From Desulfotalea psychrophila LSv54 (GTDB taxonomy: Bacteria; Desulfobacterota; Desulfobulbia; Desulfobulbales; Desulfocapsaceae), in the NCBI RefSeq assembly GCF_000025945.1, contig NC_006140.1:1-14664 (forward strand): 14,664 bases of DNA, written 5' to 3'. Numbering within the stretch: the stretch's first letter is position 1; each line of letters opens with the position of its first letter. Positions 1-14,664 of the stretch are shown here, in pieces. The notes under the pieces were generated by a model. That model searched no databases, was not told the origin of the DNA, and was given only the letters and a program-made list of their open reading frames with translations. The position numbers and the translations under genes are program-made.

Positions 1-47
1 TTTAATATATCCATTCACATTCCTATAAGCTAACAAGTTATTATCCG

Positions 48-135
48 ATTACCACACCATATTATGCTAAATCTAAGCAATAAGTGTAACGAGCTTACTC
101 GTACAACTTCATAATAGCTGATATGTTATTTAACT
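48..135. repeat. Copy 1 of an ~90-bp imperfect direct repeat (copy 2 at 1545..1635)
   Basis: Hand alignment shows the same blocks in the same order and orientation in both copies: ATTACCACA, AAGCAATAAGT, CAACTTCA, CTGATATGTTA, TTTAACT. Roughly three quarters of positions are identical. Each copy has a short internal hairpin around AATAAGT...ACTTA. Confidence 0.7.
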
Positions 136-201
136 TTTTTCTAGCTTCTTTTTACTATGGAAAAAATTAAGCGGTAAGGTAAGTCAAAAAGTCAATGACT
201 C

Positions 202-236
202 AAAAAGGCATTAAGTCATTGACTTAATGCCTTTTT
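202..236. terminator. Bidirectional rho-independent terminator-like hairpin that also carries a TAAGTC-N3-GACTTA palindrome
   Basis: Perfect 16-bp arms AAAAAGGCATTAAGTC (202..217) and GACTTAATGCCTTTTT (221..236) with a 3-nt loop. An A-run and a T-run flank it, so it can terminate in both directions. It lies about 60 nt 3' of the minus-strand CDS ending at 296. Confidence 0.6.
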
Positions 237-295
237 GGGGCAACTTGTTATTTTTGCCGAATTATATGACTGAAAGACAACACAAAACTGTTAAT

Positions 296-1435
296 TTACT
301 TTTTAATGAGAAGTTTATTAAATATTTCTTTATGTATACTTTCATTGTTGATGACCCTTGCCATTTCATCAGCAGCCCCAACAGAGAAAAATACTTTTGT
401 TGTTTTTGAGTAATTATCAAGGCTCTCGACCCAAATATAATGTTCAAATTTATTATCCACAGTACCCTCGGGCGGATTATTAACTTTAAACTTTGGGTCG
501 TCAACCCACCCTAAATAACGCATTGCAATTTTTAGATGTTGGTTTCCGAAGTTGTATATCACCTTGTCTTTAACAGCTTTGTTAAGACTTGTCATAGTAA
601 TATGTTCTTTAAAATTACTTAGCTCACCAACAATTTTATATATAGGTTTACCTTCATTGGTAGTTATTTTTCCTATTTCCCCTGCTGATATAGCATTCAA
701 GATAATATTGAAAACGCCATTTTGATTCTTATCTATCTCAACATCACTATTAGATAAAATATTATCTCTACTATTGAAGCCATAAACTCTATTTTGTACT
801 GGATTAAGTATCAACACTTCCCGCGGGTTAATATCCACCATTTCAGGTAAAAGCTTTGACCATATTTCCATAAATTCTTTGCTTCGTTCATTTGCTTTAA
901 TCTGAAGAAATCGATTAAAGTCAGCTGTTGACTGATTAGCGTGCTCATTTTTACTAGATGCACGATAATAAATAGCTCCCTTTTGTAACTTATACTCAGG
1001 GACATCAGCCTGCGGTATCAATATCTGATTATTTTTTTCAATAATCAGATAGTAAAACAACCTTGTACTAATCTTGAACTTTTGAAGATCAATGGACACC
1101 CCGACCTTTGCTATTTTTTCAAATTTTTGAGTGACATCATTAAGATCAATTTGTTCCAATATTTCTAACGTTTCACTTGGCAAGCCTACATCATCATTTT
1201 TACCTGTTGTCTTATCTTCCTTGATTCCTAATAATATCATTCCTCCATCTGCGTTAGAAAATGAAATAATATCTTTAGCAAAATTCAACAAAAAGTTTTC
1301 CAAAGACGATTTCGACTTAGTAAGTTTCAAATCAACCTTATAGTCAATATGCGAGTTTTCTTTCGGAAAATTACCATTATTTTTTAAGTCTGAAATAATA
1401 TCTGTTACGTTAACTTTTAATTCTTGAAGGTTCAT
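296..1435 (-). CDS. AlbA_2 / Schlafen-like putative nucleic-acid-binding domain protein (379 aa)
   Basis: Uninterrupted ORF with ATG start and TAA stop. The N-terminal segment ENSHIDYKVDLK...FAKDIISFSNADGGMILLGIKED matches my recollection of the AlbA_2 (PF04326) signature E..lEfK...aFaNt.GG.l.iGv.d. The C-terminal two thirds has no motif I recognise. Confidence 0.55.
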   Translation of the reverse strand: MNLQELKVNVTDIISDLKNNGNFPKENSHIDYKVDLKLTKSKSSLENFLLNFAKDIISFSNADGGMILLGIKEDKTTGKNDDVGLPSETLEILEQIDLNDVTQKFEKIAKVGVSIDLQKFKISTRLFYYLIIEKNNQILIPQADVPEYKLQKGAIYYRASSKNEHANQSTADFNRFLQIKANERSKEFMEIWSKLLPEMVDINPREVLILNPVQNRVYGFNSRDNILSNSDVEIDKNQNGVFNIILNAISAGEIGKITTNEGKPIYKIVGELSNFKEHITMTSLNKAVKDKVIYNFGNQHLKIAMRYLGWVDDPKFKVNNPPEGTVDNKFEHYIWVESLDNYSKTTKVFFSVGAADEMARVINNESIHKEIFNKLLIKK

Positions 1436-1544
1436 TTTCCCTACACTTTTATTAGACCAAAATTAATACATCAATTTAAATATTATGAAAAGTACCGCAC
1501 GAATAATATCAAACAAAGTGGTAAATTACTGTAATTGTTATGAC

Positions 1545-1635
1545 ATTACCACAATTTTATACTAACTCCAAGCAATAAGTATACCCACTTATTCGTAACA
1601 ACTTCACATAATATCTGATATGTTAAAGTTTAACT
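1545..1635. repeat. Copy 2 of the ~90-bp imperfect direct repeat (copy 1 at 48..135)
   Basis: See copy 1. It lies 110-200 nt upstream of the start of the minus-strand CDS at 1435. On the minus strand it contains a TATAAA -10-like hexamer at the position where copy 1 has CATAAT. Confidence 0.7.
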
Positions 1636-1829
1636 AAAGCCCATTTTTAAGCCCTAGAAATGTCTTGAAAACAGGCATATATTGGCAGGACACGCAAAAA
1701 CTCATAGTTAGACCTTCCTTTTCATTTTTATTTGATTCAATTTTGGTTGATCCTAGTGATTGAAATAGGAAACTCACAGAGAACGCATTGTTGTTGTGTC
1801 TTAAAGGTCGATTCTAAAGGAAAAAACCA

Positions 1830-2285
1830 ATGATAAATAGACTAATTAAAAAAACGTTAATCACAGGAATTTTGTTGGTAGCTGTCACCGCTGTTACAAT
1901 TTATTTTGTTTACGATCCAGGAATTTTTAAAAAATGGCCGTGGTTTAGATATTCTCTTAGCTTATCTGTTCTTACGATTCTAAGCGCCTTCACATATATG
2001 GCGTGGTGCATGTTAGATGTCATAAGGTGGGATAATCTATTCCACAGGGGCAGTCTTGGTAGTGATTTTTCTGCTGTTGGTTATGGGGGGGTGATAGCAC
2101 CAATACTGGTACTTCTTCTTTACCCTAGCCTTAGTTCACTTGGAGTCCATAGCGATGGAAGTGTTCGTACCGTAGGTTTTGTCATGGCATTTACACATGG
2201 CATTGGTTTTGGATATATACAAACACAAATAAACAATACTATAACTGAAATCTACAAAGCTAGATCCGAAGAGGAAACGTTGTGA
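1830..2285 (+). CDS. Small integral membrane protein of unknown function, about 4 predicted TM helices (151 aa)
   Basis: ATG preceded by AAAGGA. Four hydrophobic stretches are present (LITGILLVAVTAVTIYFVY, LSLSVLTILSAFTYMAWCML, VIAPILVLLLYPSLSSL, VGFVMAFTHGIGFGYI). It is visibly more G+C-rich than the plasmid core. It ends on TGA (2283..2285); if TGA is sense the ORF runs to TAG at 2292..2294. Confidence 0.55.
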   Translation: MINRLIKKTLITGILLVAVTAVTIYFVYDPGIFKKWPWFRYSLSLSVLTILSAFTYMAWCMLDVIRWDNLFHRGSLGSDFSAVGYGGVIAPILVLLLYPSLSSLGVHSDGSVRTVGFVMAFTHGIGFGYIQTQINNTITEIYKARSEEETL

Positions 2286-3044
2286 CTAATGTAGTGCCAA
2301 ATAAGCTGTCACAAAGGCCAATATAACCGTAAGCAACTGGAATCCCATGGATATTCGGCTCTTAGTCTTTTGTGAATTAAATTCGTCAATAGTATTTATT
2401 GCCTTACCACTTACTTTAATTGTTGTTTCATATTTTTGTATGTCTTTACAGTCTTTCAGTGATTCTAAATAAAAATCCATTTTTTTCTTTTGCAATTTGC
2501 TACCTGTACTACCTAAACGATGTGAACGGTAAAACTTTTGTAGTATGTAATCGCATTCTATTTTTTGTTTACCATTATTAACCTGTTGCCTAACTAAAAA
2601 TTGAAGAAGCTGATTTCTTTCGCTCGCCGATGCTTCTTTATTTAAATGCAGATATGCGAACTTTGTGCATAAAATCCCATATATTTTATTAAACCAATAA
2701 GGATATCTTGTGAAATACAGGAGGTAGATTTTAAATAGACTTTTTGTTTCTTTTGGTTTGAAAAAAAAATTTGGTTCAAAATAATAAGTTGTATACAAAT
2801 AGTATTGTGAAAGATTCTCAACAGTGATGTTGAAATCATCTGTCCAGCTAGTTCCGTCGAAACTTCGACATGAAAAATTATTTGCATCAAATTTGTCGAC
2901 AACATAAGATCCACCGCCCTTCTTGTGGTTTAGGATTGTGCTAAAGCGACTATAGGGACTTGTTCTACGTATACCTGATGTACAGTGGGCTTTTTTAACT
3001 AAACGTACTGCTATTGCTTTATGCATTGTTTGATAAATTTTCAA
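2286..3044 (-). CDS. Hypothetical protein with a C-terminal hydrophobic anchor (252 aa from a TTG start; an ATG at 3024..3026 is an alternative start)
   Basis: Long ORF with TAG stop at 2286..2288, directly abutting the TGA of the convergent gene. The C-terminus ISMGFQLLTVILAFVTAYLALH is TM-like. I recognise no family motif. Confidence 0.45.
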   Translation of the reverse strand: MKIYQTMHKAIAVRLVKKAHCTSGIRRTSPYSRFSTILNHKKGGGSYVVDKFDANNFSCRSFDGTSWTDDFNITVENLSQYYLYTTYYFEPNFFFKPKETKSLFKIYLLYFTRYPYWFNKIYGILCTKFAYLHLNKEASASERNQLLQFLVRQQVNNGKQKIECDYILQKFYRSHRLGSTGSKLQKKKMDFYLESLKDCKDIQKYETTIKVSGKAINTIDEFNSQKTKSRISMGFQLLTVILAFVTAYLALH

Positions 3045-3160
3045 AATCAGCTCTATCCCTCGTTTATCGATTGCAGTTTTGCTAACTCTTCGATTCTCTC
3101 ATTACCCGTACAAAAAAGATTTAACTTCGTCGCCTAACACTTTTCGAGCTTTGGACTAAA

Positions 3161-3691
3161 CTACTTTGGTTCATTAAGTTTTTTGACGTCTTTTTTATCG
3201 TTGATGAAAATAGCATTCCTTTTCAATTCAGGAAATATTTGAGGAATCATTTTTAATATTCTTTCCTGATCCTGGGCTTTCCTTGATATCTCCTCACACA
3301 CTTTTTGTTCAAGTAACTGTTTGTCTATTATCATAGATATTGCTGAATGGCTCTCACCCATATGTTGCACCATTTCCATATCTTTTAATAATTTATTGGC
3401 TCGATTTTTTAGTACGTTAGTGTAAGTGTCTATTTTACCTTTATATATGGATTCTGTGAATAATTTATCATCAAAAATAAGCCTTCCGTTTTCATCTTTC
3501 CTGAACCCTGATGCTTTGTGATTTCGTTTAGTTGCTAAATCGTTAAGGTGCAATGTTATTTCTTTTTTGATATTTTCTGAAGTCGTTGATAAGTTATAAA
3601 TATCTAACATCAACTTAATTGGGAAAGGTAACTCTTCTGCCGTAAATATCTCACCAGTACCTTTTTGTTCTACTATTTCGTTTTTACTCAC
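3161..3691 (-). CDS. Hypothetical protein (176 aa), co-oriented with and immediately downstream of rep
   Basis: GTG start with AGGA about 7 nt upstream, TAG stop. It lies 31 nt downstream of the rep stop, so an operon with rep is likely. No motif recognised. Confidence 0.5.
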   Translation of the reverse strand: MSKNEIVEQKGTGEIFTAEELPFPIKLMLDIYNLSTTSENIKKEITLHLNDLATKRNHKASGFRKDENGRLIFDDKLFTESIYKGKIDTYTNVLKNRANKLLKDMEMVQHMGESHSAISMIIDKQLLEQKVCEEISRKAQDQERILKMIPQIFPELKRNAIFINDKKDVKKLNEPK

Positions 3692-3722: not shown

Positions 3723-5060
3723 TTAAAATTTTATACCTTTTGTTTTTAAAAGCCATTTTTCAAAAGTATTAACACTTGAATCAAGTATATTTTTCCTATA
3801 ATATAATTTTGCTTGAACCTCAAAAATAACGGTTTTATAATATTCATCTATTGTTTTTAATGATGATATTTTTCTTAAAATAGTCGACTTAATTCCATCA
3901 TGACAATTATCAAGAAACTGTTTTGTAAATTTTTCTATGTTTTTATCTAAATATTTTTCAAATTGCGAATTACAATATAAACTATATTCTTCATCTAATA
4001 TTTTTTCTTTATCTTTTCTTTTTTGGTAAGCTTTTATTTCTTCTATAGATTTTTTGTCTTTTTCATCTTTCTCTTTTTCTCTAGTTTCTTTTTTCTTTTT
4101 ATAAGGGCTTTTTTTTGCCCAGTCACCAGTTATAGCTGATGAAATAAAGGCAGCTATCGTATCAACTTTTCCTTTTTCATCTTCACTTAAAGTATATTCT
4201 ATATTTCTCACTACACGGGATTCATCTAATATACCAGACTTATCCATAGATAATATTTTTTTAGGAGAAATGCCATAACCTATTAAATCTCTATAATGTT
4301 CAGGGCTTACAGAATTAAACTTCATTTTTAAAATAGCTTGTGCATCTTTATCAATAATAATGAGATCTAAAAAATGTGTTTTCCTTCCTAATTTCCTTGT
4401 TTTATAACTAAAATACATTTCTGTTTTAAGTGGTATTTCTACCATTGCTTTTTCAATAACATACTTAATAAAATCAGTAGGTTGCTTATATTTACTAGTT
4501 AAACCCATTAAAACCTTGAGTTCATCTATAACTAATGTTTTCTTTCCTAAGAAAGAATACAGCCGAATAATCTCGTAAAATCTCCATACATTACCACCTA
4601 CCACCTCATTTCTCATCCCTATTGGATAAGCGATATATGACTTTAAACTTGCACTTAATAGATACTTTTTCATGATAGGCGAGAAACGGACATCAACAGT
4701 ACCTTTTCCCTTGTTGTAATCCGCTTGGCAAAGAAAAGATGATTGGCTAACAATAATAGCCCCCTCTTCTGAAGTAGTCGTCAACTGGAAACCCTTAGTA
4801 ATCAAGCCTGCGGTTATTTCTTGAATAGCTTTATATGCCCCGTCTGGTTTTATTTTATAGTATTCAGCAAGTTGAGAAATTGAAAAACGAAGACTATCAA
4901 AATCTTCAGCATTTCCATCTGATACAGCAATCATTAAATCAATAAATTTTCCTTCCCTTTCAGTAAAACAATAATTTTTGCTTAGCATTTTCGTGCTTTT
5001 TCTTACAAGGGTATGCGGATTATATACTTCCGGTAAATGAACCATTTTCAAAAAAACCAT
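3723..5060 (-). CDS. Plasmid replication initiator (RepB / Rep_3-like, iteron-binding type), 445 aa
   Basis: Large ORF reading away from an array of 21-bp iterons that begins about 85 bp upstream of its start. The N-terminal half looks like winged-helix initiators (LSKNYCFTEREGKFIDLM...ISQLAEYY). It has a K/E-rich linker and a TAA stop. The call rests mostly on the iteron context. The true start could be one of the internal Met codons. Confidence 0.65.
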   Translation of the reverse strand: MVFLKMVHLPEVYNPHTLVRKSTKMLSKNYCFTEREGKFIDLMIAVSDGNAEDFDSLRFSISQLAEYYKIKPDGAYKAIQEITAGLITKGFQLTTTSEEGAIIVSQSSFLCQADYNKGKGTVDVRFSPIMKKYLLSASLKSYIAYPIGMRNEVVGGNVWRFYEIIRLYSFLGKKTLVIDELKVLMGLTSKYKQPTDFIKYVIEKAMVEIPLKTEMYFSYKTRKLGRKTHFLDLIIIDKDAQAILKMKFNSVSPEHYRDLIGYGISPKKILSMDKSGILDESRVVRNIEYTLSEDEKGKVDTIAAFISSAITGDWAKKSPYKKKKETREKEKDEKDKKSIEEIKAYQKRKDKEKILDEEYSLYCNSQFEKYLDKNIEKFTKQFLDNCHDGIKSTILRKISSLKTIDEYYKTVIFEVQAKLYYRKNILDSSVNTFEKWLLKTKGIKF

Positions 5061-5145
5061 ATTAAATTTAAAAGAATATATAACTGTATTTTCGAGACAT
5101 TAATACATTAAGTATAACCTAACTCAGAATTTGTCAAACAAAAAG

Positions 5146-5504
5146 AGCAATAAAAACTCGGAGTTAATTTAGGACAAGCAAAAACTCGGAGTTAAAAACA
5201 TCATAATGAAATAAAAAAGGTACTAATACAGAGACATACTTCCAAAAATAATCTGAAAAAACAAGGACAAGCAAAAACTCGGAGTTAATAAAGTATTATT
5301 AAGCTTAAACTGTCGTATTTAAATAATAAATTAAAAATAATTCTAAACATCAAAAAACAACAAGCAAAAACTCGGAGTTAACAAGCAAAAACTCGGAGTT
5401 AGTTTTTTATTTTTTGCTCTTTTTTATAAAAAAAAGCGTCATAATAGGCAGTTAGCCCACAAACAAGCAAAACCTCGGAGTTAACAAGCAAAAACTCGGA
5501 GTTA
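5146..5504. repeat. oriV-type iteron array: seven 21-bp direct repeats ACAAGCAAAAACTCGGAGTTA
   Basis: Copies at 5146..5166 (degenerate 5' third), 5174..5194, 5267..5287, 5360..5380, 5381..5401, 5463..5483 (one mismatch) and 5484..5504. All have the same orientation, and two pairs are exactly tandem. An A/T-rich tract (5402..5440, GTTTTTTATTTTTTGCTCTTTTTTATAAAAAAAAG) lies between the tandem pairs and is a plausible unwinding element. Confidence 0.85.
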
Positions 5505-5682: not shown

Positions 5683-5845
5683 AGACCTAAAAAAGCTCAA
5701 GAACAAACCATAGCTAAACGATCACAAAAAAAACATACATAAGTACAAGTCCCCTATATTTTGCTCTGTAGGAGGGTTTTTTGAGCTTTTTAAGGATTTG
5801 CAAGAAAGTCTTTTTTGAAAAACCAGAAAAAGCGCTGACAAAAAG
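5683..5845. repeat. Copy 1 of an ~165-bp imperfect direct repeat (copy 2 at 6665..6830)
   Basis: Hand alignment. Both copies begin AGACCTAAAA and end G(C/A)CGACAAAAA(G/A). The 38-nt cores 5763..5800 and 6744..6781 (GCTCTGTAGGAGGGTTTTTTGAGCTTTTTAAGGATTTG) match at 35 of 38 positions. The copy lies 3' of the minus-strand gene ending at 5975. Confidence 0.7.
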
Positions 5846-6664: not shown

Positions 6665-6830
6665 AGACCTAAAAGGTTCATAACCAACCTTTTAGCTAAG
6701 CGGTTATAAAAAAAGATACATGGTTACCCGTTTTATATGTTTCGCTCTGTAGGAAGGATTTTTGAGCTTTTTAAGAATTTGTGAGGGATTCTTTTTTCTG
6801 AAGTTCTTGAAAAACAGCCGACAAAAAAGG
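6665..6830. repeat. Copy 2 of the ~165-bp imperfect direct repeat (copy 1 at 5683..5845)
   Basis: See copy 1. This copy contains a perfect 10-bp hairpin CTAAAAGGTT-CATAACC-AACCTTTTAG (6669..6695). Its high-coordinate end lies 14 nt beyond the stop (6844..6846) of the minus-strand primase-like gene, so the repeat lies 3' of that gene. Confidence 0.7.
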
Positions 6831-8633: not shown

Positions 8634-8945
8634 ATGGACATTTGTAAAATAGTTGAAGAGAAATTAAAGGATTATCCACTATATTCTCAAGATTGAAATA
8701 AAAACCCTTTAGTTTGTGCTAAATTGTTTTGATTAGGTACAGGAGCAACCTGGTATATTACAGAATATTCTCCTAAAGAAAAAATAGCTTTCTGATATAC
8801 TGAATGATTAACGGAAAATGGTGATGAATGGGGATATATTAGTTTGGCAGAACTTGCGAGTATAATGTTTTGACCTATCCCAAGAATAGAGGTTGATTTG
8901 TTTTTCAAAGTAAAAGGTTTTTCAGAAATTGTAAAAAGGGAATAA
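8634..8945 (+). CDS. DUF2958-family protein (103 aa) containing five in-frame TGA codons (best fit Gly, table 25)
   Basis: ATG at 8634 and TAA at 8943. In-frame TGA at 8694, 8730, 8793, 8805 and 8871. With TGA = Gly the product is MDICKIVEEKLKDYPLYSQDGNKNPLVCAKLFGLGTGATWYITEYSPKEKIAFGYTEGLTENGDEWGYISLAELASIMFGPIPRIEVDLFFKVKGFSEIVKRE. This reproduces my recollection of the DUF2958 (PF11171) pattern LYSQ.G, KFF.P...WTWY..E.D, FFG.V.G...E.GY.SL.EL, RGP...IERD..F. The standard-code track reports only an antisense ORF here. Confidence 0.8.
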
Positions 8946-8957: not shown

Positions 8958-9055
8958 CAGTTCATTTTTACGGGCACGGTTAATTTTGGAGCTATGCTGA
9001 AAGAGTGCTATTATAGTAGAAGCAAGATTGAAAGTTTTACGAAAACATTCATCTT

Positions 9056-9080
9056 GTAAGGGGGGATTCCCCCCCCTTAC
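9056..9080 (+). promoter_or_regulatory. Candidate oriT inverted repeat
   Basis: GTAAGGGGGG (9056..9065) pairs with CCCCCCTTAC (9071..9080) across the loop ATTCC, and is followed by CCCCCTTTTAAAAACC. It is the only strongly G/C-rich hairpin in the window and sits about 30 nt upstream of the mobC-relaxase operon, the usual oriT position. The nick site was not identified. Confidence 0.45.
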
Positions 9081-9112
9081 CCCCCTTTTAAAAACCATAA
9101 AAAATAAGCCTA

Positions 9113-9481
9113 ATGTCTAGAAAAAAATATTTACAAGAATATCAAAAAGAGTATCGAAAAGAAAAAAAACAAGTAACTTTAACACTTACTTTAACAGAGT
9201 ATAATTATTTTAAAACAATAGCAGATAAAGAAGATATAAAAGTTACAAGTTTAATTAAAGCTATGGCTTTATCTCAACTTGGTAAAACTTTTTATTTCCC
9301 TAAGGAAATCCTAAAAAGGATAGATGAATTTATTTTTATAATTAGAAATATTGCTAATAATCTAAATCAAATAGCAAGGCATTCAAATATTATAAAAAAT
9401 GTTATTAACGAAAACAGTGTACTCTCATTAATAAAAAATCTTGAGACAGAAGTTAAAAGATTCATAAAAAGTAAAATATGA
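9113..9481 (+). CDS. mobC: MobC-family relaxosome accessory protein (ribbon-helix-helix type), 122 aa
   Basis: The motifs KKQVTLTLTLTEYNYFKTIADKEDIKVTSLIKAMAL and IRNIANNLNQIARHSN match my recollection of the PF05713 signature NLNQ(I/L)AR..N. Its stop overlaps the relaxase start in ATGA (9478..9481). If TGA is sense the ORF ends at TAA 9485..9487. Confidence 0.8.
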   Translation: MSRKKYLQEYQKEYRKEKKQVTLTLTLTEYNYFKTIADKEDIKVTSLIKAMALSQLGKTFYFPKEILKRIDEFIFIIRNIANNLNQIARHSNIIKNVINENSVLSLIKNLETEVKRFIKSKI

Positions 9482-10398
9482 TTATAAAATCCTTATCAAG
9501 AAAAAAACCGACTTTTGGGCAGTTGTCTGATTATATTTATAATGAGGCAGATAAAGAATATATTTATACATATAATATGTACTCTGATAAAAATAAATTA
9601 AAAGATATAAAAAAAGAATTTAAAGAAAATTATAGTTTTTTAAAAAAACAAAAAAATTCTAATGCCTTGTACCATGAGATGTTATCTATAAAAAAATCTA
9701 ATATAGAGATTGATTTACAAAAAAAAGCCTTATATGACATTGTTAACGAGTATATAAAAGTAAGGTCGCCAAATTGTTTAGTCTATGGTGGTCTGCATGA
9801 GGCAGAAAATAACCTACATTATCATGTGATTATTAGTTCAAATCAAATTGAAAAAGAAAAGAATAATTATTTATCAAAAAAAGAATTTTCTGAAATTAAA
9901 AAAGGGTTAGAAATGTATGTTCTAAACAAATACCCAGAGTTAAAACAAGAAATAATTATAAATAAAGAGAAAAAGAAAAACACTATATCGGACAAAGAAT
10001 ATCAATTAGGAAAAAGAACAGGTAGGCAAACTAAAAGCGAAAATTTAAAAGAAAGATTAAATAATATTTTCAATAATGCTAAAACAAAAAAAGAATTTTT
10101 TGACGCTCTCTATTGGGAGAAAATAGAAATTCAACTAAAAGGTAAAACAATAAAATTTATTGATGAAAAAACGGGGCTGACTCGTCGTCTAAAAAGACTA
10201 GGGCTAGAAGAAGAATTTTATAAATTAAGTGATAGTTTAGAACAGCAAGAAGCAAAGTACCAGGAGGGGAAGCAAACCCACGAGCAACAGCAAGCTCACG
10301 AGCAACAGCAAGCTCACGAGCAACAAGAACAAACTAAAAATACTGAGTCAGCTGAAGAACTGAAGAAAAACAAAGAAATAAAAGAAAAGAATTTCTAA
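9478..10398 (+). CDS. Relaxase / mobilization nuclease (MobA/VirD2-type, PF03432-like), 306 aa
   Basis: N-terminus MIIKSLSRKKPTFGQLSDYIYNE, with candidate catalytic Tyr residues. A histidine motif NNLHYHVIISSN is present. The start is translationally coupled to mobC and the stop is TAA. The C-terminal tail is Q/E-rich and carries an 18-bp tandem repeat. Confidence 0.8.
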   Translation: MIIKSLSRKKPTFGQLSDYIYNEADKEYIYTYNMYSDKNKLKDIKKEFKENYSFLKKQKNSNALYHEMLSIKKSNIEIDLQKKALYDIVNEYIKVRSPNCLVYGGLHEAENNLHYHVIISSNQIEKEKNNYLSKKEFSEIKKGLEMYVLNKYPELKQEIIINKEKKKNTISDKEYQLGKRTGRQTKSENLKERLNNIFNNAKTKKEFFDALYWEKIEIQLKGKTIKFIDEKTGLTRRLKRLGLEEEFYKLSDSLEQQEAKYQEGKQTHEQQQAHEQQQAHEQQEQTKNTESAEELKKNKEIKEKNF

Positions 10399-10458: not shown

Positions 10459-10671
10459 ATGGGTTTTTTAAGTTTTTTAGATTCGTTTATGAGTTTAATT
10501 TCTATCTTAGACAACAAGAACGACGTTTCAGATGATAAAGAAGATACAAATAAGTCTGAAACTAAGCCCGTTAATGAATCAAAAAAAAATGAACTTATAG
10601 CAGAAAGGAAAAGCGAATTTTCTAAAGTAGAAAAAAAAGAAAAAGAAAAAGATAAATCAAGGCAAAGATAA
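10459..10671 (+). CDS. Small hypothetical protein (70 aa) with a hydrophobic N-terminus and a K/E-rich tail; paralogue of 10683..10988
   Basis: ATG with AAAGG upstream and a TAA stop. The N-terminus MGFLSFLDSFMSLISIL resembles MIDFLGLFDGFMSFFSL in the next ORF. Confidence 0.45.
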   Translation: MGFLSFLDSFMSLISILDNKNDVSDDKEDTNKSETKPVNESKKNELIAERKSEFSKVEKKEKEKDKSRQR

Positions 10672-10682
10672 AAGGGGTTATT

Positions 10683-10988
10683 ATGATAGATTTTTTAGGG
10701 CTTTTTGATGGATTTATGAGTTTTTTTTCTCTCACGAAAGATAGTTCAACCAAAATAGATAATGGCAATAATAGATGTGGAAATTGTAAAAAAAACAATT
10801 ATAAAAAACCCACTTATGAAGCTAAGACAATTGATAAAAAACAAAAAAATGATCTTCTTGAAAAACAAAAAAATGCACGTATCAAAAGAGAGATGGATAT
10901 AGTTAAAAGAAAAGCGGATTTTTACTCTACAAAACAGCCTAATATGACTATAAAAGATAATGTAGTTACATATGATTTTAAAAACTGA
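10683..10988 (+). CDS. Small hypothetical protein (101 aa); paralogue of 10459..10671
   Basis: AAGGGG (10672..10677) sits 5 nt before the ATG. It shares the N-terminal motif FL.(L/F).D.FMS with the preceding ORF and contains a CGNC pair. It ends on TGA (10986..10988), with TAA two codons later (10992..10994). Confidence 0.45.
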   Translation: MIDFLGLFDGFMSFFSLTKDSSTKIDNGNNRCGNCKKNNYKKPTYEAKTIDKKQKNDLLEKQKNARIKREMDIVKRKADFYSTKQPNMTIKDNVVTYDFKN

Positions 10989-10999: not shown

Positions 11000-12466
11000 A
11001 TGTCAAAATTAATAGCGGATACACTAAAAACATTTTTTAATGTTGGGAAATTTATAGCTAAAGGCTATGTATTAAAAAAAGAAGAGGGCGCAAGGTTTGC
11101 AAAAAATAGTGAACAAAATGAAATAATAAATAGCTCAAATAGAGGGTTATTAATTAATGGGATTAATAAAAGATTATCAGAAAAAGAGTCATTTAAGCAT
11201 ATTGCAATTATTGCAAAATCGGGAATAGGTAAAACAACAGGATATATTTATCCTAATATTTTTGATAAAGCAGATTCTAATTGCTCAATGCTTATAACTG
11301 ACCCAAGTAGTGAAATTTATGAAACTACATCACAACATTTAAAAAATAGAGGTTTTAAAATTGTTAGGTTAAACCCTAGTAATATTAATCAGTCGTCAAG
11401 ATTTAATCCATTTCATGGATTAGGTGCGGAAGATATTATTGAAATTGAACAAATTTGTACATCAATAATTAAGTCTAAATATGGAAATGATAAAGAGCAA
11501 GTGTGGAATGATGGGGCGATTTCTTTGCTTGAACTGTTTGCTAAATGTTTAGCTTATACACAACCTGAATACTTAAATCTGCCTAATCTTAATTATTTAA
11601 TTCAAATGTTCGGAGAAAGTGGGGAAAATTTAGATGATTGGGTTATTGAACACTCTATAAACCCCTATGACGAACAGGACAGGTCTATTCTTGATTTTTG
11701 GATAGGTCTTAGGTCTAATAATGCTAATATGTTAACTAGTTACGCAACTATCGTTAAAACAGCGTTAAAACAGTTAAATAATCGGAAGATTCAAAGACTA
11801 TTATCAAATAATGATATTGATTTAGAAGATTTTAGAAAACAAAAAACAGCAATTTTTTTAAGTTTTCCAGATAATCAGCAAGACTATTATCAGTTTTTAG
11901 TTGATATTTTTTATGCTAGGTTTTTTTCTGTTATGATGAGCAAAAAACCCACGCCGAGAGATTTAAACGTGTATTGTTTTTTAGATGAGTTTGGTAATGC
12001 TTACGTGGATAATTTCCCTACAATAGTAACTACTATTAGAAAATACAGAGTTTCTCTGTCTGTTGTACTTCAAGGAATAAGCCAACTTAATAAAAAATAT
12101 GGAGATATGGCGAAAAGCGGAATTTCAAGTTTTATAATTTATGCAGGTGGTGACTATGAAACTTTGAATGAACAAAGCCAGTTAATAGGGAAAAAAAGAA
12201 TAATACAAAGAAATAAATTTGAAGACCATGTGACAAGTTATCAAGATATTGATTTATTGCCTCCTGCAGAATTAAGAACAATGAAAGATAATCAAGCTTT
12301 ATTTTTGTCTAGTAATAAATACCCTTTTATATTTGAATTTCAACCCTTTTATAAAAACAGAAAATTTTTAACTCTTTCTAAAAAAGGGGAGTATATACCA
12401 TTAGAAAAACAAAAAGATATGTGTTGGAATCAATTGTTTTTGAAAAAAAATAATAAAAATAAATGA
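11000..12466 (+). CDS. Type IV coupling protein (TraG/VirD4 family ATPase) without N-terminal TM helices, 488 aa
   Basis: Walker A AKSGIGKTT (GIGKTT at 11222..11239). Walker B-like YCFLDEFGN. RFNPF and VLQGISQL motifs are typical of T4CPs. It has 24 Gly (hand count) and no internal TGA. It ends on TGA (12464..12466); the next in-frame stop is TAA at 12500..12502. Confidence 0.85.
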   Translation: MSKLIADTLKTFFNVGKFIAKGYVLKKEEGARFAKNSEQNEIINSSNRGLLINGINKRLSEKESFKHIAIIAKSGIGKTTGYIYPNIFDKADSNCSMLITDPSSEIYETTSQHLKNRGFKIVRLNPSNINQSSRFNPFHGLGAEDIIEIEQICTSIIKSKYGNDKEQVWNDGAISLLELFAKCLAYTQPEYLNLPNLNYLIQMFGESGENLDDWVIEHSINPYDEQDRSILDFWIGLRSNNANMLTSYATIVKTALKQLNNRKIQRLLSNNDIDLEDFRKQKTAIFLSFPDNQQDYYQFLVDIFYARFFSVMMSKKPTPRDLNVYCFLDEFGNAYVDNFPTIVTTIRKYRVSLSVVLQGISQLNKKYGDMAKSGISSFIIYAGGDYETLNEQSQLIGKKRIIQRNKFEDHVTSYQDIDLLPPAELRTMKDNQALFLSSNKYPFIFEFQPFYKNRKFLTLSKKGEYIPLEKQKDMCWNQLFLKKNNKNK

Positions 12467-12503: not shown

Positions 12504-13127
12504 ATGGCTTTAAATGTTTTTGATTCTGTTTTGTTGTCCTTTGTATATGCTTTAATAACTTGGGTCTGTTTTTATTCTATTAAAAAATTACACTGGTTAT
12601 TAAAAATAGTTCCTATAATATTTCTAACAAGTGTAATTGGTCATTCTCCAAGTTTTGGCGCTAGGATAATGATAATATCTTTTTTGATTATGGTAGCAAG
12701 AGAACTATATATAAAAAATAATTGTTATTTTTTATATGAAATATTTAGTAACGCAACTGATTTTTTAAAAAATAAAAAAAATAAGAGAAAAGAAGAAGAG
12801 AATTTTAATTCTGAAAGAAAATCAAACAATGAAAACATTAAAGAAGAGTTAAGCCAAGCAAAAGAAAGATTGAAAAAAGTTAGGGAAGAAGCAGACCACC
12901 AAAAAGCAAACCACCAAAAAGCAGCCAGTAAACCCCCAAGAGAAAGATTAAATATTTTTTCAGAACCATTAACTCATGCAGAGTTAAAAAAAGCTTATCG
13001 TCTAGCTTCATTAAAATGCCACCCTGACCATGTGGAACATCTCTCGGAAACCTTAAAAGAAACGGCTAATGAGGAATTTAAAAAACTTAATGAAGCTTAT
13101 AATAAACTTAAAAAAGTAGCCCAGTAA
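12504..13127 (+). CDS. Membrane-anchored protein with a C-terminal J domain (DnaJ-like), 207 aa
   Basis: AGGA sits 7 nt before the ATG. About three hydrophobic N-terminal segments are followed by a charged coiled-coil-like linker. The J-domain signature is LTHAELKKAYRLASLKCHPDHV...EEFKKLNEAYNKLKK, with HPD at 13020..13028. The stop is TAA. Confidence 0.75.
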   Translation: MALNVFDSVLLSFVYALITWVCFYSIKKLHWLLKIVPIIFLTSVIGHSPSFGARIMIISFLIMVARELYIKNNCYFLYEIFSNATDFLKNKKNKRKEEENFNSERKSNNENIKEELSQAKERLKKVREEADHQKANHQKAASKPPRERLNIFSEPLTHAELKKAYRLASLKCHPDHVEHLSETLKETANEEFKKLNEAYNKLKKVAQ

Positions 13128-13207
13128 GTCTGTGACTTAAAAAACTTTTAAGTCAAAAAGCTATTAAGTCAAAAAATTTTTGACTTTTTAACTCAATGCC
13201 CTATAAT
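13125..13207 (+). promoter_or_regulatory. par operon promoter with overlapping palindromic operator / centromere-like sites
   Basis: TTGACT (13180..13185), 16 nt, then TATAAT (13202..13207). The palindromes are TAAGTC-TGT-GACTTA (13125..13139) and AAGTCAAAAA-A-TTTTTGACTT (13166..13186, overlapping the -35). An extra TTAAGTCA half-site lies at 13148..13155. Confidence 0.6.
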
Positions 13208-13240
13208 ATATTTTATAATTTAACATATAAAAGGTTTATT

Positions 13241-13837
13241 ATGAGAACTTTATTTTGGACGTTTAAAGGTGGTCAAGGCAAGACAACCCTTGCTGTTTCC
13301 TATGCTCTTTATTCAGACAGTTATTTTATAACTAACGATACAGAGAGTGGAACTTTAGATATTTACGGGGGCTTGTTTAGTAGTGATAAAATGGAGAGCT
13401 TAGGAAGAGGGGAAGACCTGGTTTTAAGAGAGAGAAATGAAGTTTATGACTTGGGGGGGTGGTCTGATAGTTTGGCTGAAAAAGTAGCTAGTAACTGTGA
13501 GATTTGTGTTATCCCTGTTTCTTTTAATAGTATTAGTGAAATAACACCCTCCATTAAGGCTATAAATTCATTGTCTATCTATAACAAAAGTATTGTTTTA
13601 GTGATAAATAATACAGACAAAAAAGAAGCTGTAGAAGCTAAAAAATACTTTGAAAAAGAATACCCTAAAATAAAAGTATTTATAGTAAATAAATCTAAAT
13701 ATATACATAGACTAGCAAATGAAAATAAAACGGTTTTTGAAATAGCAGAACAAAACGGGCTTACTAGATATAATACTAAGCAACTAAGAAACCAACTTAC
13801 AACCTTATTTGATTATATAAAAAACTATGACAACTAA
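13241..13837 (+). CDS. parA: ParA/Soj-family partition ATPase (198 aa from the ATG at 13241)
   Basis: The deviant Walker A FKGGQGKTT lies right at the N-terminus when translation starts at 13241. AAGG sits 6 nt upstream. The ORF-track start at 13196 lies upstream of the predicted -10 box and would add an atypical 15-aa leader. The stop is TAA. Confidence 0.8.
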   Translation: MRTLFWTFKGGQGKTTLAVSYALYSDSYFITNDTESGTLDIYGGLFSSDKMESLGRGEDLVLRERNEVYDLGGWSDSLAEKVASNCEICVIPVSFNSISEITPSIKAINSLSIYNKSIVLVINNTDKKEAVEAKKYFEKEYPKIKVFIVNKSKYIHRLANENKTVFEIAEQNGLTRYNTKQLRNQLTTLFDYIKNYDN

Positions 13838-14069
13838 AAAAAGTACTTTTGACAAACTGGCAAACAAAAGCAAAACTATAGCAAATAGTAATCCAGTAGA
13901 TATACAAAAAAGTGAATTAATAGAAAGTGTCGTTAAAAGAGAGAAGAAAAACAAACAAGTACAATTTTATTTAACAGAAACAGAATATAATAAATTGATT
14001 AACACTATGAAACCTATGGAAAAATTAAGCGATAAAGTAAGGCAAATAGTAATTAAGTCTTTGACTTAA
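13827..14069 (+). CDS. Small partition adaptor / DNA-binding protein, probably ParG/RHH-like (80 aa)
   Basis: It overlaps the parA 3' end by 11 nt. A basic N-terminal tail is followed by KQVQFYLTETEYNKLINTM...VRQIVIKSL, resembling a beta-strand-helix-helix (RHH) unit. Its position matches type Ib par operons. The stop is TAA. Confidence 0.5.
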   Translation: MTTKKSTFDKLANKSKTIANSNPVDIQKSELIESVVKREKKNKQVQFYLTETEYNKLINTMKPMEKLSDKVRQIVIKSLT

Positions 14070-14070
14070 T
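14052..14070. promoter_or_regulatory. Additional TAAGTC-N3-GACTTA palindrome at the 3' end of the par operon
   Basis: ATTAAGTC-TTT-GACTTAAT (14052..14070) followed by GCC. Apart from its 3-nt spacer it is the same as ATTAAGTC-ATT-GACTTAATGCC at 210..231. Confidence 0.55.
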
Positions 14071-14087
14071 GCCTTGTATAATTAACG

Positions 14088-14664
14088 TCAAGTTAACCGG
14101 CTGATTTCGTCACTCACCGCTTTTATGTATTTATTGCTTGAGGTCACAAAATCTTCTAGTCCTTTTTTTAGAATCAAAGAGTTAGCCGGTGTGTTTTCAG
14201 AATTTCTATATAAAGTTTCAAATTTGAAATTTTCTTCCAGTAGAAATTTAACCTTTTCAGAGAAATCTTTATCTGAAATATGTTTTGCATAAATTGAAGA
14301 TAAAGATTTTATTTTACTTTGAATTATAAAAAATTCCTGCCCTAAATTTTGCGAAGCTATATATTTGTCAATTTGCTCGCCAGATATTTTTTCTTCAATC
14401 ATGGTGTATATATTAGAATATTTCACGTATATTCTTAAATTCATTTCTATTAGTTGACAGTGCAATTCTTCAAGTTTAAGTATTTTTCGTTCTTTATTGC
14501 TAGCGATTTCGGCTAATTTGTTTTTGTGATCTTCGAGATCTTGTGATAACGATAATTTATGATTTTCAATATCTTTGACAAGAAACTGACCGAGAACTTT
14601 CTTGGCTAAAAAAACTGCTATTGTAATTAATGTAGCAGATCCACTGACTGATAATAGAACAATG
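14088..14664 (-). CDS. Membrane-anchored coiled-coil protein of unknown function, 5'-truncated by the window edge
   Basis: The frame of ORF 14088..14465 stays open upstream to nt 14663 (IVLLSVSGSATLITIAVFLAKKVLGQF..., a TM helix, then heptad-like charged sequence). The M in the ORF track is a TTG codon inside this longer frame. It ends on TGA (14088..14090), with TAA two codons later (14082..14084). Confidence 0.6.
   Translation of the reverse strand, partial: IVLLSVSGSATLITIAVFLAKKVLGQFLVKDIENHKLSLSQDLEDHKNKLAEIASNKERKILKLEELHCQLIEMNLRIYVKYSNIYTMIEEKISGEQIDKYIASQNLGQEFFIIQSKIKSLSSIYAKHISDKDFSEKVKFLLEENFKFETLYRNSENTPANSLILKKGLEDFVTSSNKYIKAVSDEISRLT

What the first reader, a model, noticed from the sequence alone, without database searches (positions are those of the whole stretch)
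1..14664. Genetic-code mosaic: two TGA-rich cargo genes sit in a plasmid backbone with no internal TGA
By hand count, TGA supplies 5 of 10 glycine positions in the DUF2958 gene and 5 of about 13 in the primase-like gene. None of the other roughly 14 ORFs has a single internal TGA. That set includes Rep, MobC, relaxase, the T4CP with 24 Gly, the J-domain protein, ParA and the AlbA_2 protein. All of these are full family-typical lengths under the standard code. Such a sharp split is not expected from uniform codon usage in one genome. I see three possible explanations. (a) A standard-code plasmid backbone recently entered a code-25 host and picked up native genes. (b) The backbone is kept code-neutral because the element moves between hosts with different codes; this is speculative, though SR1-type bacteria are reported as epibionts or predators of other bacteria. 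(c) A standard-code plasmid captured two genes from a code-25 donor, and those genes are dead in their present host. Any of these would be an unusual documented case of a mobile element crossing a genetic-code boundary, and plasmids of these candidate phyla are barely described.
Basis: inference. Interest (0 to 1): 0.9.

Follow-up and report, generated by a model that had tools for sequence, protein, structure and literature searches.

The report
Plasmid written in two genetic codes
This small plasmid of the standard-code sulfate reducer Desulfotalea psychrophila has two conserved genes readable only if TGA means glycine, while its other genes use TGA as a stop; relatives share this split, which suggests mobile DNA crossing a genetic-code boundary.

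Summary
Only the primase-like gene (6844-7737, minus strand) and the DUF2958 gene (8634-8945) need TGA as a sense codon: 10 TGA against 13 GGN. Sixteen other ORFs have 0 internal TGA against 137 GGN (Fisher p=5e-10). Homologue alignments and profile scores both read TGA as Gly, not Trp.

The window is the complete 14,664-bp small plasmid of Desulfotalea psychrophila LSv54, a cultured standard-code bacterium. The two genes are not cargo. They sit next to the oriT-like site, keep their position in relatives, have the same codon usage as the backbone, and DUF2958 co-diverged with the T4CP (rho 0.74-0.90).

The split is family-wide and old. Fifty-seven T4CPs have no internal TGA in about 1,460 Gly codons, and many end in TGA exactly at the ancestral stop. 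Neighbouring genes (DUF2958, primase, methylase, recombinases) carry conserved TGA=Gly under purifying selection (dN/dS 0.07-0.3). This holds even in elements inside Colwellia and Pseudoalteromonas isolate genomes. No suppressor tRNA was found.

Best reading (about 50%): the lineage is selected in both standard-code and code-25 cells, and in Desulfotalea the two genes are silent. I found no prior report.

The parts
6844..7737 (-). Primase-like gene (CHC2-type zinc-ribbon region plus Toprim_2), 297 codons, with 5 in-frame TGA at codons 89, 118, 153, 166 and 200. Under the standard code it stops after 88 aa. The public record annotates that fragment as 'Related to DNA primase PrmN1 (partial length)'.
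   Evidence: In alignment A1, TGA at codons 166 and 200 falls on near-invariant Gly columns, including the E-G-F Toprim motif. The Pfam score is best with G (46.0 bits) and worst with W (38.2 bits). Annotation.
8634..8945 (+). DUF2958 gene, 103 codons, with 5 in-frame TGA at 8694, 8730, 8793, 8805 and 8871. Under the standard code it stops after 20 aa.
   Evidence: Pfam scores are G 30.7, X 28.1 and W 24.8 bits. In the family alignment, 'AF#Y' and 'TE#L' line up with AFGY and TGL of the TGA-free relatives.
9020..9090 (+). oriT-like site: two adjacent hairpins, GCAAGATTG...CATCTTG followed by GTAAGGGGGG-ATT-CCCCCCCCTTAC. It lies between DUF2958 and mobC.
   Evidence: The same architecture is conserved 30-150 bp upstream of MobC across the family; the GCAAGATTGCA core occurs in 24 of 36 upstream regions. 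DNA fold -16.9 kcal/mol, z=-5.2. Nick site and transfer polarity are not determined.
9113..9481 (+). MobC-like relaxosome accessory gene. It ends in TGA, which overlaps the relaxase ATG as ATGA (9478-9481).
   Evidence: Pfam MobC 22.2 bits, just under the 23.2-bit cut-off, plus a NikA-like match. The same ATGA overlap occurs in the Colwellia isolate locus L009.
9478..10398 (+). Relaxase, 306 aa, no TGA, TAA stop. It has a C-terminal Gln/His-rich 18-nt tandem repeat.
   Evidence: No profile hit of its own. It is 44-48% identical to the L001 and L002 orthologues, and the L002 orthologue carries PF03432. The HxxxxxNxHYH motif is visible in the alignment.
10459..10988 (+). Two small paralogous ORFs (10459-10671 and 10683-10988) with similar hydrophobic N-termini. 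The second ends in TGA.
   Evidence: repeat D5. Function unknown.
11000..12466 (+). Type IV coupling protein (T4CP), 488 aa, 24 GGN, no internal TGA, TGA stop.
   Evidence: Pfam T4SS-DNA_transf 171.8 bits. It is 100% identical to CAG37860 / WP_011190473 of D. psychrophila. The TGA falls where TAA/TAG-terminated orthologues end.
12504..13127 (+). Membrane-anchored J-domain protein. It is a conserved partner downstream of the T4CP in the family and has no TGA.
   Evidence: Pfam DnaJ 36.2 bits. Family-wide count is 0 TGA against 209 GGN.
13196..14069 (+). ParA-like ATPase (13196-13837) and an 80-aa partner (13827-14069), flanked by parS-like palindromes TTAAGTCAnnGACTTAA at 211-227, 13124-13140 and 14053-14069.
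   Evidence: The KGGQGKTT Walker A motif is present. It is 42% identical to the L001 ParA. Palindromes: 6 matches against 0.2 expected.
3723..5504 (-). Rep_3 initiator gene (3723-5060, no TGA) and its iterons: six ~21-nt copies between 5175 and 5504.
   Evidence: Pfam Rep3_N 73.4 bits and Rep3_C 51.1 bits. Iterons: 7 matches against 0.01 expected. Rep has essentially no close relatives in the 5.8-billion-protein collection.
296..3691 (.). Accessory arm: AlbA_2/Schlafen-type protein (296-1435, minus), a membrane protein (1830-2285, TGA stop), and two unknown ORFs. None has an internal TGA. GC3 is about 0.3 against 0.1-0.25 elsewhere.
   Evidence: No PADLOC or NCBIfam hits.

Best explanation
SHOWN. 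The window is the whole small plasmid of Desulfotalea psychrophila LSv54. It is a Rep_3/iteron, ParA-partitioned, mobilizable plasmid carrying an oriT-like site, MobC, a relaxase and a T4CP. It belongs to a family of marine mobilizable plasmids and integrated elements that use TGA in two conflicting ways within one molecule. Replication, partition and mobilization genes never use TGA as a sense codon and often use it as their stop. A set of genes next to oriT uses TGA for conserved glycines. In this window that set is the primase-like gene and DUF2958. In relatives it also includes an N6/N4 DNA methylase, DUF7222, recombinases and unknown genes. The split has persisted while the two gene sets co-diverged from about 94% to about 50% protein identity, and the TGA-containing genes are under purifying selection.

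INFERRED. Both rules can only be maintained if the lineage is repeatedly selected in two kinds of cell. In standard-code bacteria the mob, rep and par genes work and TGA terminates. In code-25 cells (the Gracilibacteria/Absconditabacteria type, the only known TGA=Gly users) the oriT-proximal establishment-type genes are readable. In D. psychrophila the plasmid replicates and can be mobilized using its code-neutral genes, but the primase-like and DUF2958 genes stop at their first TGA (after 88 and 20 aa) and are silent. In a code-25 cell every gene would be readable; the five TGA-terminated genes would merely gain 1-11 extra residues. The code difference therefore acts as a host-specific expression gate.
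For: Identity and host. The T4CP and eight other ORFs are exact matches to proteins of the 14,664-bp D. psychrophila LSv54 record. PMC4224046 lists 'plasmid small' CR522872 at 14.7 kb and 28.6% GC, 18.2 points below the chromosome.

TGA means Gly.
- The Toprim E-G-F column is near-invariant Gly.
- Pfam scores are best with G and worst with W.
- In the family-wide tally of residues opposite TGA, Gly is 39% (8.2x enriched) and Trp 2%.
- In TGA-rich genes, Gly content is 2.7% without TGA and 5.7% with it, against 4.4% in TGA-free genes; TGG frequency is equal in both classes.
- The FxGxGTT SAM-binding motif of the methylase is spelled with TGA.

TGA means stop in the backbone.
- All five terminal TGAs in the window sit at ORF ends (p about 2e-9).
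- The ATGA overlap between MobC and the relaxase is shared with the Colwellia element.
- The T4CP TGA sits exactly at the conserved C-terminus in at least 10 divergent members, and the relaxase TGA follows a conserved C-terminal motif in 8.
- Across the family there are 0 internal TGA in about 1,460 T4CP Gly codons, 0/427 in the relaxase, 0/209 in DnaJ and 0/138 in Fic.

Not cargo and not recent.
- Synteny Toprim - DUF2958 - oriT - MobC - relaxase - T4CP - DnaJ holds in L001, L002, L022, L032 and L074.
- Non-Gly codon usage correlates at r=0.986 between the two gene classes.
- DUF2958 and T4CP identities correlate at rho 0.74 overall and 0.90 within the recoded clade, as strongly as MobC or relaxase against T4CP.

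Functional recoded genes. dN/dS is 0.07-0.30 at dS 0.25-0.6, with TGA positions conserved.

Residence in standard-code cells. Recoded genes lie in elements of the cultured strains Colwellia I2R04, Colwelliaceae 6441, Pseudoalteromonas ASV78 (4-Mb contig) and IMCC1989. Cargo in L074 (a polysaccharide lyase and toxin-antitoxin pairs) is TGA-free.

Compatibility with a code-25 home. A closed marine Gracilibacterium genome is 28.87% GC and has been tentatively linked to Colwellia (PMC6851277).
Against: No family member was found on a contig that can be assigned to a code-25 organism. The scan of 185,579 species genomes returned only standard-code taxa and MAG bins.

No tRNA-Gly(UCA) is present in the window or in 41 related loci. 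Every host known from culture uses the standard code. Code-25 cells are therefore inferred only from the codon reading itself.

Transfer polarity at the oriT-like site is unknown, so calling the recoded genes a 'leading region' is an analogy.

Which genes are recoded varies between members. Toprim is TGA-free in L001 and L004. The Rep3 of L004 has 5 TGA. DUF2958 is TGA-free in the Colwellia clade.

The correlation p-values ignore phylogenetic non-independence.

I could not check that D. psychrophila lacks any UGA-suppressing tRNA. That it does rests on general knowledge and on the record's own table-11 annotation.
Confidence: 0.5

Rival explanations
1. In-host code switching. The elements live only in standard-code bacteria. 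The TGA-containing genes are expressed when a trans-acting suppressor is present, for example a tRNA-Gly(UCA)-like tRNA carried by the helper conjugative element or a phage. This would gate the oriT-proximal genes much as recoded phages gate late genes.
For: All cultured hosts are standard-code. Recoded genes stay intact and under purifying selection between elements of different Colwellia isolates. Recoded integrases and serine recombinases lie in elements already integrated in standard-code chromosomes. The elements lack a mating pore and so depend on a helper.
Against: No tRNA of any suppressor type was found in the window or in 41 loci with up to 10 kb of flank on each side. There were no Rfam hits. 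A Gly-inserting UGA suppressor is known only from code-25 lineages (general knowledge). Flanking regions of the Colwellia copies differ, so independent acquisition cannot be excluded.
Confidence: 0.12
2. Essentially a code-25 plasmid family. Copies in Desulfotalea, Colwellia and others are dead-end spill-overs. The mob genes stay TGA-free because they are continually replaced by recombination with standard-code relatives, or for an unknown reason internal to code-25 cells.
For: In a code-25 cell every gene is readable. The window's GC of 28.6% matches a marine Gracilibacterium (28.87%) and not its recorded host, which is about 18 points higher. The Rep3 and ParA of L004 are themselves recoded.
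Against: DUF2958 and T4CP co-diverge at rho 0.90 within the recoded clade, so the mob module is not being swapped in. TGA is conserved exactly at the T4CP and relaxase stop positions in about 10 divergent members, which has no explanation where TGA is Gly. TGA-free cargo such as a polysaccharide lyase fits heterotroph hosts. Several independent cultured standard-code hosts carry intact copies.
Confidence: 0.15
3. One reading: a standard-code plasmid captured two genes from a code-25 donor, and they are simply dead.
For: In D. psychrophila both genes terminate early. The public annotation shows only an 88-aa primase fragment.
Against: The genes are syntenic family members and not insertions. 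Codon usage is indistinguishable from the backbone. There are no frameshifts or TAA/TAG in 297 and 103 codons of 24-30% GC DNA. The family shows dN/dS of 0.25-0.3 for DUF2958 with conserved TGA sites.
Confidence: 0.08
4. Mis-assignment. The plasmid was not in D. psychrophila cells but in an unnoticed code-25 epibiont or contaminant of the sequenced culture.
For: This plasmid has the largest plasmid-chromosome GC gap (18.2 points) among plasmids of cold-active bacteria. Its Rep is an orphan. CPR epibionts can persist in apparently pure host cultures (general knowledge).
Against: Relatives are embedded in megabase-scale contigs of other cultured standard-code bacteria, so residence in such hosts is normal for the family. 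The backbone uses TGA as a stop. It is a finished genome from a type strain.
Confidence: 0.05
5. Assembly chimera joining DNA from two organisms at 6.3-6.9 kb and 8.9-9.1 kb.
For: None beyond the codon split itself.
Against: The DUF2958 - oriT - MobC junction is conserved in many independent contigs. GC3 and codon usage are continuous across the boundaries. The record is a closed 14,664-bp replicon. The 90-nt repeats near the left boundary are only 78% identical and so are not an assembly collapse.
Confidence: 0.01

Closest known systems
Stop-codon-recoded bacteriophages with mixed-code genomes
   Same: One mobile genome in which a block of genes uses a stop codon as a sense codon while another block stays readable in the standard code. 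The split follows function and life-cycle stage. The hosts use the standard code.
   Different: Those phages reassign TAG to Gln or TGA to Trp, and usually carry their own suppressor tRNAs or release-factor genes. Here TGA is Gly. No tRNA was found in the window or in 41 loci. The element is a mobilizable plasmid or integrated element, and TGA is also kept as a real stop in the same molecule.
Genetic code 25 of Gracilibacteria (BD1-5) and Absconditabacteria (SR1)
   Same: In-frame TGA at conserved glycine positions. GC of about 29%, as in the closed marine Gracilibacterium genome (PMC6851277).
   Different: Only 2 of about 18 genes in the window use it, and the rest treat TGA as a terminator. 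The recorded host is a Desulfobacterota isolate. No code-25 chromosomal gene or tRNA-Gly(UCA) is linked to any family member.
Rep_3/iteron mobilizable plasmids with MobC, relaxase and T4CP, and NBU1-type mobilizable elements with a PrmN1-like Toprim primase
   Same: A Rep3_N/C initiator with 21-nt iterons; ParA with palindromic sites; an oriT-like inverted repeat upstream of mobC; a relaxase with a histidine triad; a T4CP; no mating-pore genes. The nearest primase homologues are mostly from Bacteroidota.
   Different: None of these is reported to carry genes in another genetic code. Rep here is an orphan. PLSDB holds no near relative.
Plasmid leading regions, the oriT-adjacent establishment and anti-defence genes expressed first in the recipient (Samuel et al. 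2024; my own knowledge)
   Same: The recoded genes sit directly beside the oriT-like site and are of establishment type. They include a primase, an orphan DNA methylase (in relatives), DUF2958 and DUF7222, with an adjacent H-NS-like gene in relatives.
   Different: Transfer polarity, single-strand promoters and early expression were not tested. Gene orientation is mixed. The H-NS gene is TGA-free.

Membership tests
Genetic code 25 usage (TGA = Gly) | In-frame TGA falls at conserved glycine positions of homologous proteins | tested here: met
   The E-G-F Toprim column is Gly. Pfam scores favour G over W. In the family tally, Gly is 39% and 8.2x enriched. The methylase FxGxGTT motif is spelled with TGA.
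Genetic code 25 usage (TGA = Gly) | TGA is not used as a terminator in the same genome | tested here: not met
   Five window genes end in TGA (p about 2e-9). T4CP and relaxase TGAs sit at the ancestral stop positions across the family.
Genetic code 25 usage (TGA = Gly) | tRNA-Gly with anticodon UCA present, and release factor 2 absent, in the host | not testable with these tools
   No tRNA is present on the plasmid or in related loci. The host chromosome could not be read. The record is annotated with the standard code.
Mobilizable plasmid (relaxase + T4CP, no mating pore) | Type IV coupling protein | tested here: met
   PF02534 171.8 bits and PF12696 66.4 bits.
Mobilizable plasmid (relaxase + T4CP, no mating pore) | Relaxase with the catalytic histidine triad | tested here: inconclusive
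   The window protein has no Pfam or NCBIfam hit. It is 44% identical to an orthologue carrying PF03432, and the HxxxxxNxHYH motif is present.
Mobilizable plasmid (relaxase + T4CP, no mating pore) | oriT with inverted repeats next to the relaxosome genes | tested here: met
   A conserved twin hairpin lies upstream of MobC in the family. Fold z=-5.2. Nicking was not tested.
Mobilizable plasmid (relaxase + T4CP, no mating pore) | Absence of VirB4 and other mating-pore genes | tested here: met
   No such domain occurs in any window ORF.
Rep_3 iteron plasmid | Rep3_N and Rep3_C initiator with tandem iterons nearby | tested here: met
   73.4 and 51.1 bits. Six ~21-nt iterons lie at 5175-5504, with 0.01 expected by chance.
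Code-mosaic recoded phage | Element-encoded suppressor tRNA or release-factor manipulation | tested here: not met
   ARAGORN and Rfam found nothing.
Code-mosaic recoded phage | Phage structural, packaging or lysis genes | tested here: not met
   All recognisable genes are plasmid replication, partition or mobilization genes.
Plasmid leading region | First DNA to enter the recipient, expressed early from single-stranded DNA | not testable with these tools
   Only adjacency to the oriT-like site and establishment-type gene content are shown.

The most novel reading that the evidence does not exclude
A family of marine mobilizable plasmids and integrated elements is written in two genetic codes at once because its life cycle alternates between two kinds of cell. 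One kind is standard-code bacteria such as Desulfotalea, Colwellia, Pseudoalteromonas and probably flavobacteria. The other is code-25 CPR epibionts or predators (Gracilibacteria/Absconditabacteria). The code difference acts as a natural host-specific expression switch: establishment genes (primase, methylase, recombinases, DUF2958) are readable only in the code-25 cell, while replication, partition, mobilization and cargo genes are readable in both. If so, these elements physically trace CPR-host pairs, and D. psychrophila would be a host or prey of a code-25 bacterium.
Probability: 0.4. Interest if true: 0.95.

Novelty: new variant of a known kind. Interest (0 to 1): 0.85.

Why it matters
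A changed genetic code is usually seen as a firewall against horizontal gene transfer. Here a whole family of mobile elements appears to straddle that firewall. One set of genes is code-neutral and another is readable only where TGA is glycine, and the arrangement has been stable over long divergence.

Four consequences follow if this is right.
- It would be the first described plasmids or integrated elements tied to code 25, and a natural example of gene expression gated by the genetic code.
- It would give an experimentally tractable handle on the unknown hosts of Gracilibacteria/Absconditabacteria. The carriers (D. psychrophila DSM 12343, Colwellia and Pseudoalteromonas isolates) are cultured.
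- If the rival holds instead, it would reveal an unknown UGA-to-Gly suppression system in ordinary marine bacteria.
- Practically, public annotations of these elements are wrong. The primase gene of this plasmid is annotated as an 88-aa fragment, and gene callers using table 11 leave the recoded block of relatives nearly empty.

Tried and rejected
- TGA=Trp (code 4, suggested by the low GC). Rejected by alignment columns, profile scores, the residue tally and amino-acid budgets.
- Selenocysteine or simple read-through. Rejected on general grounds: five UGAs per gene, and Gly identity.
- Cargo or compositional-island reading. Rejected.
- Chimera. Rejected.
- Near-identical DNA in PLSDB: none, and only one distant T4CP hit by protein search.
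- Exact-sequence look-ups of Rep, relaxase, AlbA_2 and the T4CP in the contig index found nothing. Identity came instead from the homologue search and cluster look-up.
- One exact 38-mer scan of IMG/VR: no match.
- Rfam at permissive threshold: only noise.
- NCBIfam and PADLOC on the unknown ORFs: nothing useful.
- Rep homologue search: self plus one weak hit.
- The genome paper of Rabus et al. 2004 is not held in the library.
- Literature searches for recoded or code-25 plasmids, and for Desulfotalea with Gracilibacteria, found no prior description.
- Relaxase C-terminal tails after the TGA as conserved read-through extensions. This was left undecided, because they may be separate small genes like the window's 10459-10988 ORFs.
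- TAA/TAG-only ORF calling in loci above about 38% GC gives spurious long ORFs. I therefore relied on homology-anchored counts there.

Full report
**What the window is.** The 488-aa coupling protein encoded at 11000-12466 is 100% identical to a protein from a 14,664-bp NCBI contig of Desulfotalea psychrophila. Eight further window ORFs are exact matches to CAG378xx / WP_0111904xx proteins of strain LSv54 with locus tags DPPA... A review of plasmids from cold-adapted bacteria lists this replicon as 'plasmid small', CR522872, 14.7 kb, 28.6% GC and 17 ORFs. It notes that its GC lies 18.2 points below the host chromosome, the largest gap in that survey (PMC4224046). The window is therefore a complete plasmid from a cultured bacterium. 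The record is annotated with the standard code. One of its annotated products is the 88-aa N-terminal piece of the primase-like gene, which ends at the first in-frame TGA.

**Check of the observation.** With only TAA/TAG as stops, exactly two long ORFs contain internal TGA.
- 6844-7737 (minus strand): 297 codons, 5 TGA, 8 GGN.
- 8634-8945 (plus strand): 103 codons, 5 TGA, 5 GGN.

Pfam finds a CHC2-type zinc-ribbon region and a Toprim_2 domain on either side of the TGAs in the first ORF, and DUF2958 across them in the second. Sixteen other ORFs (3,439 codons, 137 GGN) have no internal TGA; Fisher's exact test gives p=5e-10. The other two frames of the primase gene each hold 25-27 TAA/TAG, so a 297-codon open frame is not chance. 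Rep_3, MobC (weak), T4CP, J-domain and AlbA_2 are confirmed by Pfam. The relaxase and ParA rest on homology and motifs.

**TGA is glycine.** Thirty-three homologues of the primase were aligned, at most 40% identical to it and mostly from Bacteroidota. In that alignment the TGAs at codons 166 and 200 fall on Gly columns, the latter in the near-invariant E-G-F of the Toprim fold. The other three TGAs lie in variable regions. Replacing TGA by different residues gives the best Pfam scores with G and the worst with W: Toprim_2 46.0 against 38.2 bits, and DUF2958 30.7 against 24.8 bits.

**TGA is also a stop on the same plasmid.** Five backbone ORFs have a single in-frame TGA, always 2-12 codons before the next TAA/TAG (joint probability about 2e-9 if position were random). 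They are 1830-2285, MobC, 10683-10988, the T4CP and 14088-14465. The MobC TGA overlaps the relaxase start as ATGA, and the same overlap is found in a Colwellia isolate. The plasmid thus contains two incompatible uses of TGA.

**The two genes are not cargo.** GC3 of the two genes (0.15 and 0.18) matches that of the mob genes and rep (0.11-0.24). The only compositional outlier is the accessory arm at 296-3691.

Contigs carrying the closest T4CPs show the same gene order. L001 has a T4CP 65% identical and L002 one 58% identical to the window's. The order is primase (minus strand), a small gene, DUF2958, an intergenic site, MobC, relaxase, T4CP, J-domain protein, with the ParA pair elsewhere. The intergenic site is a conserved pair of hairpins, GCAAGATTGnAA...CATCTTG followed by a G-run/C-run stem, lying 30-150 bp upstream of MobC across the family. 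In the window it is at about 9020-9090 and folds with z=-5.2. I read it as oriT. The nick site and transfer polarity are untested.

**The split is family-wide.** I collected 75 related loci through the T4CP and clustered all TAA/TAG-delimited ORFs.

Across 57 distinct T4CPs there is no internal TGA in about 1,460 Gly codons. The relaxase N-terminal domain has 0/427, the J-domain protein 0/209, Fic 0/138 and H-NS 0/25. In at least 10 divergent members the T4CP ends in TGA exactly where TAA/TAG-terminated orthologues end. In 8 members the relaxase TGA follows a conserved C-terminal motif.

The genes just upstream of oriT are full of TGA. They are DUF2958, DUF7222, an N6/N4 DNA methylase, usually the primase, and in other members tyrosine and serine recombinases, a T4CP-like ATPase and unknown proteins. 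In seven low-GC members TGA supplies 52% of Gly codons in 33 such genes. Opposite TGA, homologues have Gly in 39% of cases (8.2x enrichment) and Trp in 2%. Counting TGA as Gly raises the Gly content of these genes from 2.7% to 5.7%, against 4.4% in the TGA-free genes, while TGG frequency is the same in both classes. The methylase spells its SAM-binding FxGxGTT motif with TGA, and one TGA ('NP#LTMR') is shared by 7 of 8 members from 28% to 49% GC. Read as Gly, these ORFs give strong Pfam hits: methylase 143.6 bits, integrase 115.2 bits, and resolvase plus recombinase domains.

**The split is old and maintained.**
- Non-Gly codon usage of TGA-rich and TGA-free genes correlates at r=0.986.
- DUF2958 identities track T4CP identities as tightly as MobC or the relaxase do: rho 0.74 against 0.68 and 0.73, and 0.90 within the recoded clade, over a range from about 94% to about 47% identity. 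The p-values ignore shared ancestry, so I rely on the effect sizes.
- The TGA-containing genes have dN/dS of 0.07-0.30 at dS 0.25-0.6, with TGA positions conserved.

A recently imported backbone, recently captured genes, and frequent swapping of the mob module are all hard to reconcile with this.

**Hosts.** A scan of one genome per species found relatives only in standard-code taxa. Several are cultured: Gamma proteobacterium IMCC1989, Colwellia sp. I2R04, Colwelliaceae bacterium 6441, Pseudoalteromonas sp. ASV78 (on a 4.0-Mb contig) and P. rubra. Most of these copies also contain TGA=Gly genes.
- Colwellia: a 481-aa ATPase with 8 TGA (Walker A 'SS#SGKS'), and conserved 277-aa and 145-aa proteins.
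- Pseudoalteromonas sp. ASV78: an integrase with 9 TGA.
- IMCC1989: the methylase and DUF2958.

P. rubra showed no convincing recoded gene.

Low-GC contigs binned as Cellulophaga, Campylobacterota or Gammaproteobacteria show the same pattern. One of them carries TGA-free cargo typical of heterotrophs, a polysaccharide lyase and toxin-antitoxin pairs.

No tRNA gene, apart from one tRNA-Phe, lies in the window or in 41 loci, and Rfam finds nothing in the window. No locus could be tied to a code-25 organism.

**Interpretation.** The following are shown:
- the identity of the plasmid;
- the reality and significance of the split;
- TGA=Gly in one gene set and TGA=stop in the other;
- long-term linkage of the two sets;
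- purifying selection on the recoded genes.

The rest is inferred. The lineage must be selected both where TGA terminates and where it is glycine. The only known cells of the second kind are Gracilibacteria and Absconditabacteria, which are epibionts or predators of other bacteria. A closed marine Gracilibacterium genome has 28.87% GC and has been tentatively linked to Colwellia (PMC6851277). CPR bacteria almost universally carry a type IV secretion system but rarely carry relaxases (bioRxiv 10.1101/2025.01.22.634366).

I therefore favour a two-host life cycle at about 50%, with the code acting as an expression gate. In D. psychrophila the primase-like and DUF2958 genes are silent. The main rivals are an unknown trans-acting UGA-to-Gly suppressor in the standard-code hosts (about 12%) and a basically code-25 family with dead-end spill-overs (about 15%). 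Plain dead cargo, culture contamination and chimera are minor.

**Novelty.** Code-mosaic genomes are known from recoded phages (my own knowledge). Those phages use other reassignments and carry suppressor tRNAs. My literature searches found no report of plasmids or integrated elements using code 25, nor of recoding in this long-public plasmid. I rate it a new variant of a known kind and of high interest. The carriers are culturable, and the competing explanations can be separated by simple experiments.

Noticed in passing
L009 493-2762 and 7675-8112; L010 7592-8029; L012 4491-5441; L003 4534-5689: Cultured standard-code Gammaproteobacteria carry intact TGA=Gly genes inside T4CP-bearing elements. 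The strains are Colwellia sp. I2R04, Colwelliaceae 6441, Pseudoalteromonas sp. ASV78 and IMCC1989. The genes are an ATPase, two unknown proteins, an integrase, a methylase and DUF2958. TGA positions are conserved between strains.
   Followed up: partly
window 5727-5816 and 6708-6797: A 90-nt direct repeat (78% identical) brackets the 123-aa gene at 5975-6346. The second copy lies just downstream of the primase gene. It could be a duplicated promoter or terminator region, or the scar of a small cassette.
   Followed up: no
window 10459-10671 and 10683-10988: Two tandem paralogous small ORFs with similar hydrophobic N-termini (MGFLSFLDSFMSL / MIDFLGLFDGFMSF) lie between the relaxase and the T4CP. 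In relatives the same space is an in-frame tail after the relaxase TGA, 60-80 codons long in four of them and still free of TAA/TAG. It may be a separate small gene or a code-dependent relaxase extension.
   Followed up: partly
window 10271-10325: An 18-nt tandem repeat (x3) encodes a Gln/His-rich (QQQAHEQQ) stretch at the relaxase C-terminus.
   Followed up: no
window 211-227, 13124-13140, 14053-14069: Palindromes TTAAGTCAnnGACTTAA flank the parA/80-aa operon and recur near the plasmid 'start'. They are likely centromere-like sites.
   Followed up: partly
window 1691-1710: A degenerate extra copy of the Rep iteron (3 mismatches) lies 3.5 kb from the iteron array, upstream of the membrane-protein gene.
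   Followed up: no
window 296-3691: The accessory arm has clearly higher GC3 (about 0.3) than the rest of the plasmid. It holds an AlbA_2/Schlafen-type protein, a membrane protein and two unknown ORFs. It looks like the real recently acquired cargo. It has no defence-system hits.
   Followed up: partly
L004 3099-4358 and 2211-2849: In a 28% GC contig binned as a Cellulophaga MAG, the Rep_3 initiator (5 TGA) and ParA (2 TGA) are themselves recoded, while its primase is TGA-free. Which genes are recoded therefore differs between family members.
   Followed up: no
L074 980-4058; L073 7028-8298: Public gene calls made with the standard code leave the recoded block of these contigs almost empty or in fragments. 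Such blocks are therefore systematically invisible in protein databases.
   Followed up: partly
L001 11317-14911; L054 1181-2872; L064 4354-6087: A family of roughly 560-590-aa proteins with no Pfam match is among the most TGA-dense genes (11-18 TGA each). In L001 they are followed by two more dense unknown genes (256 aa with 14 TGA, and 271 aa with 4 TGA and no GGN).
   Followed up: no
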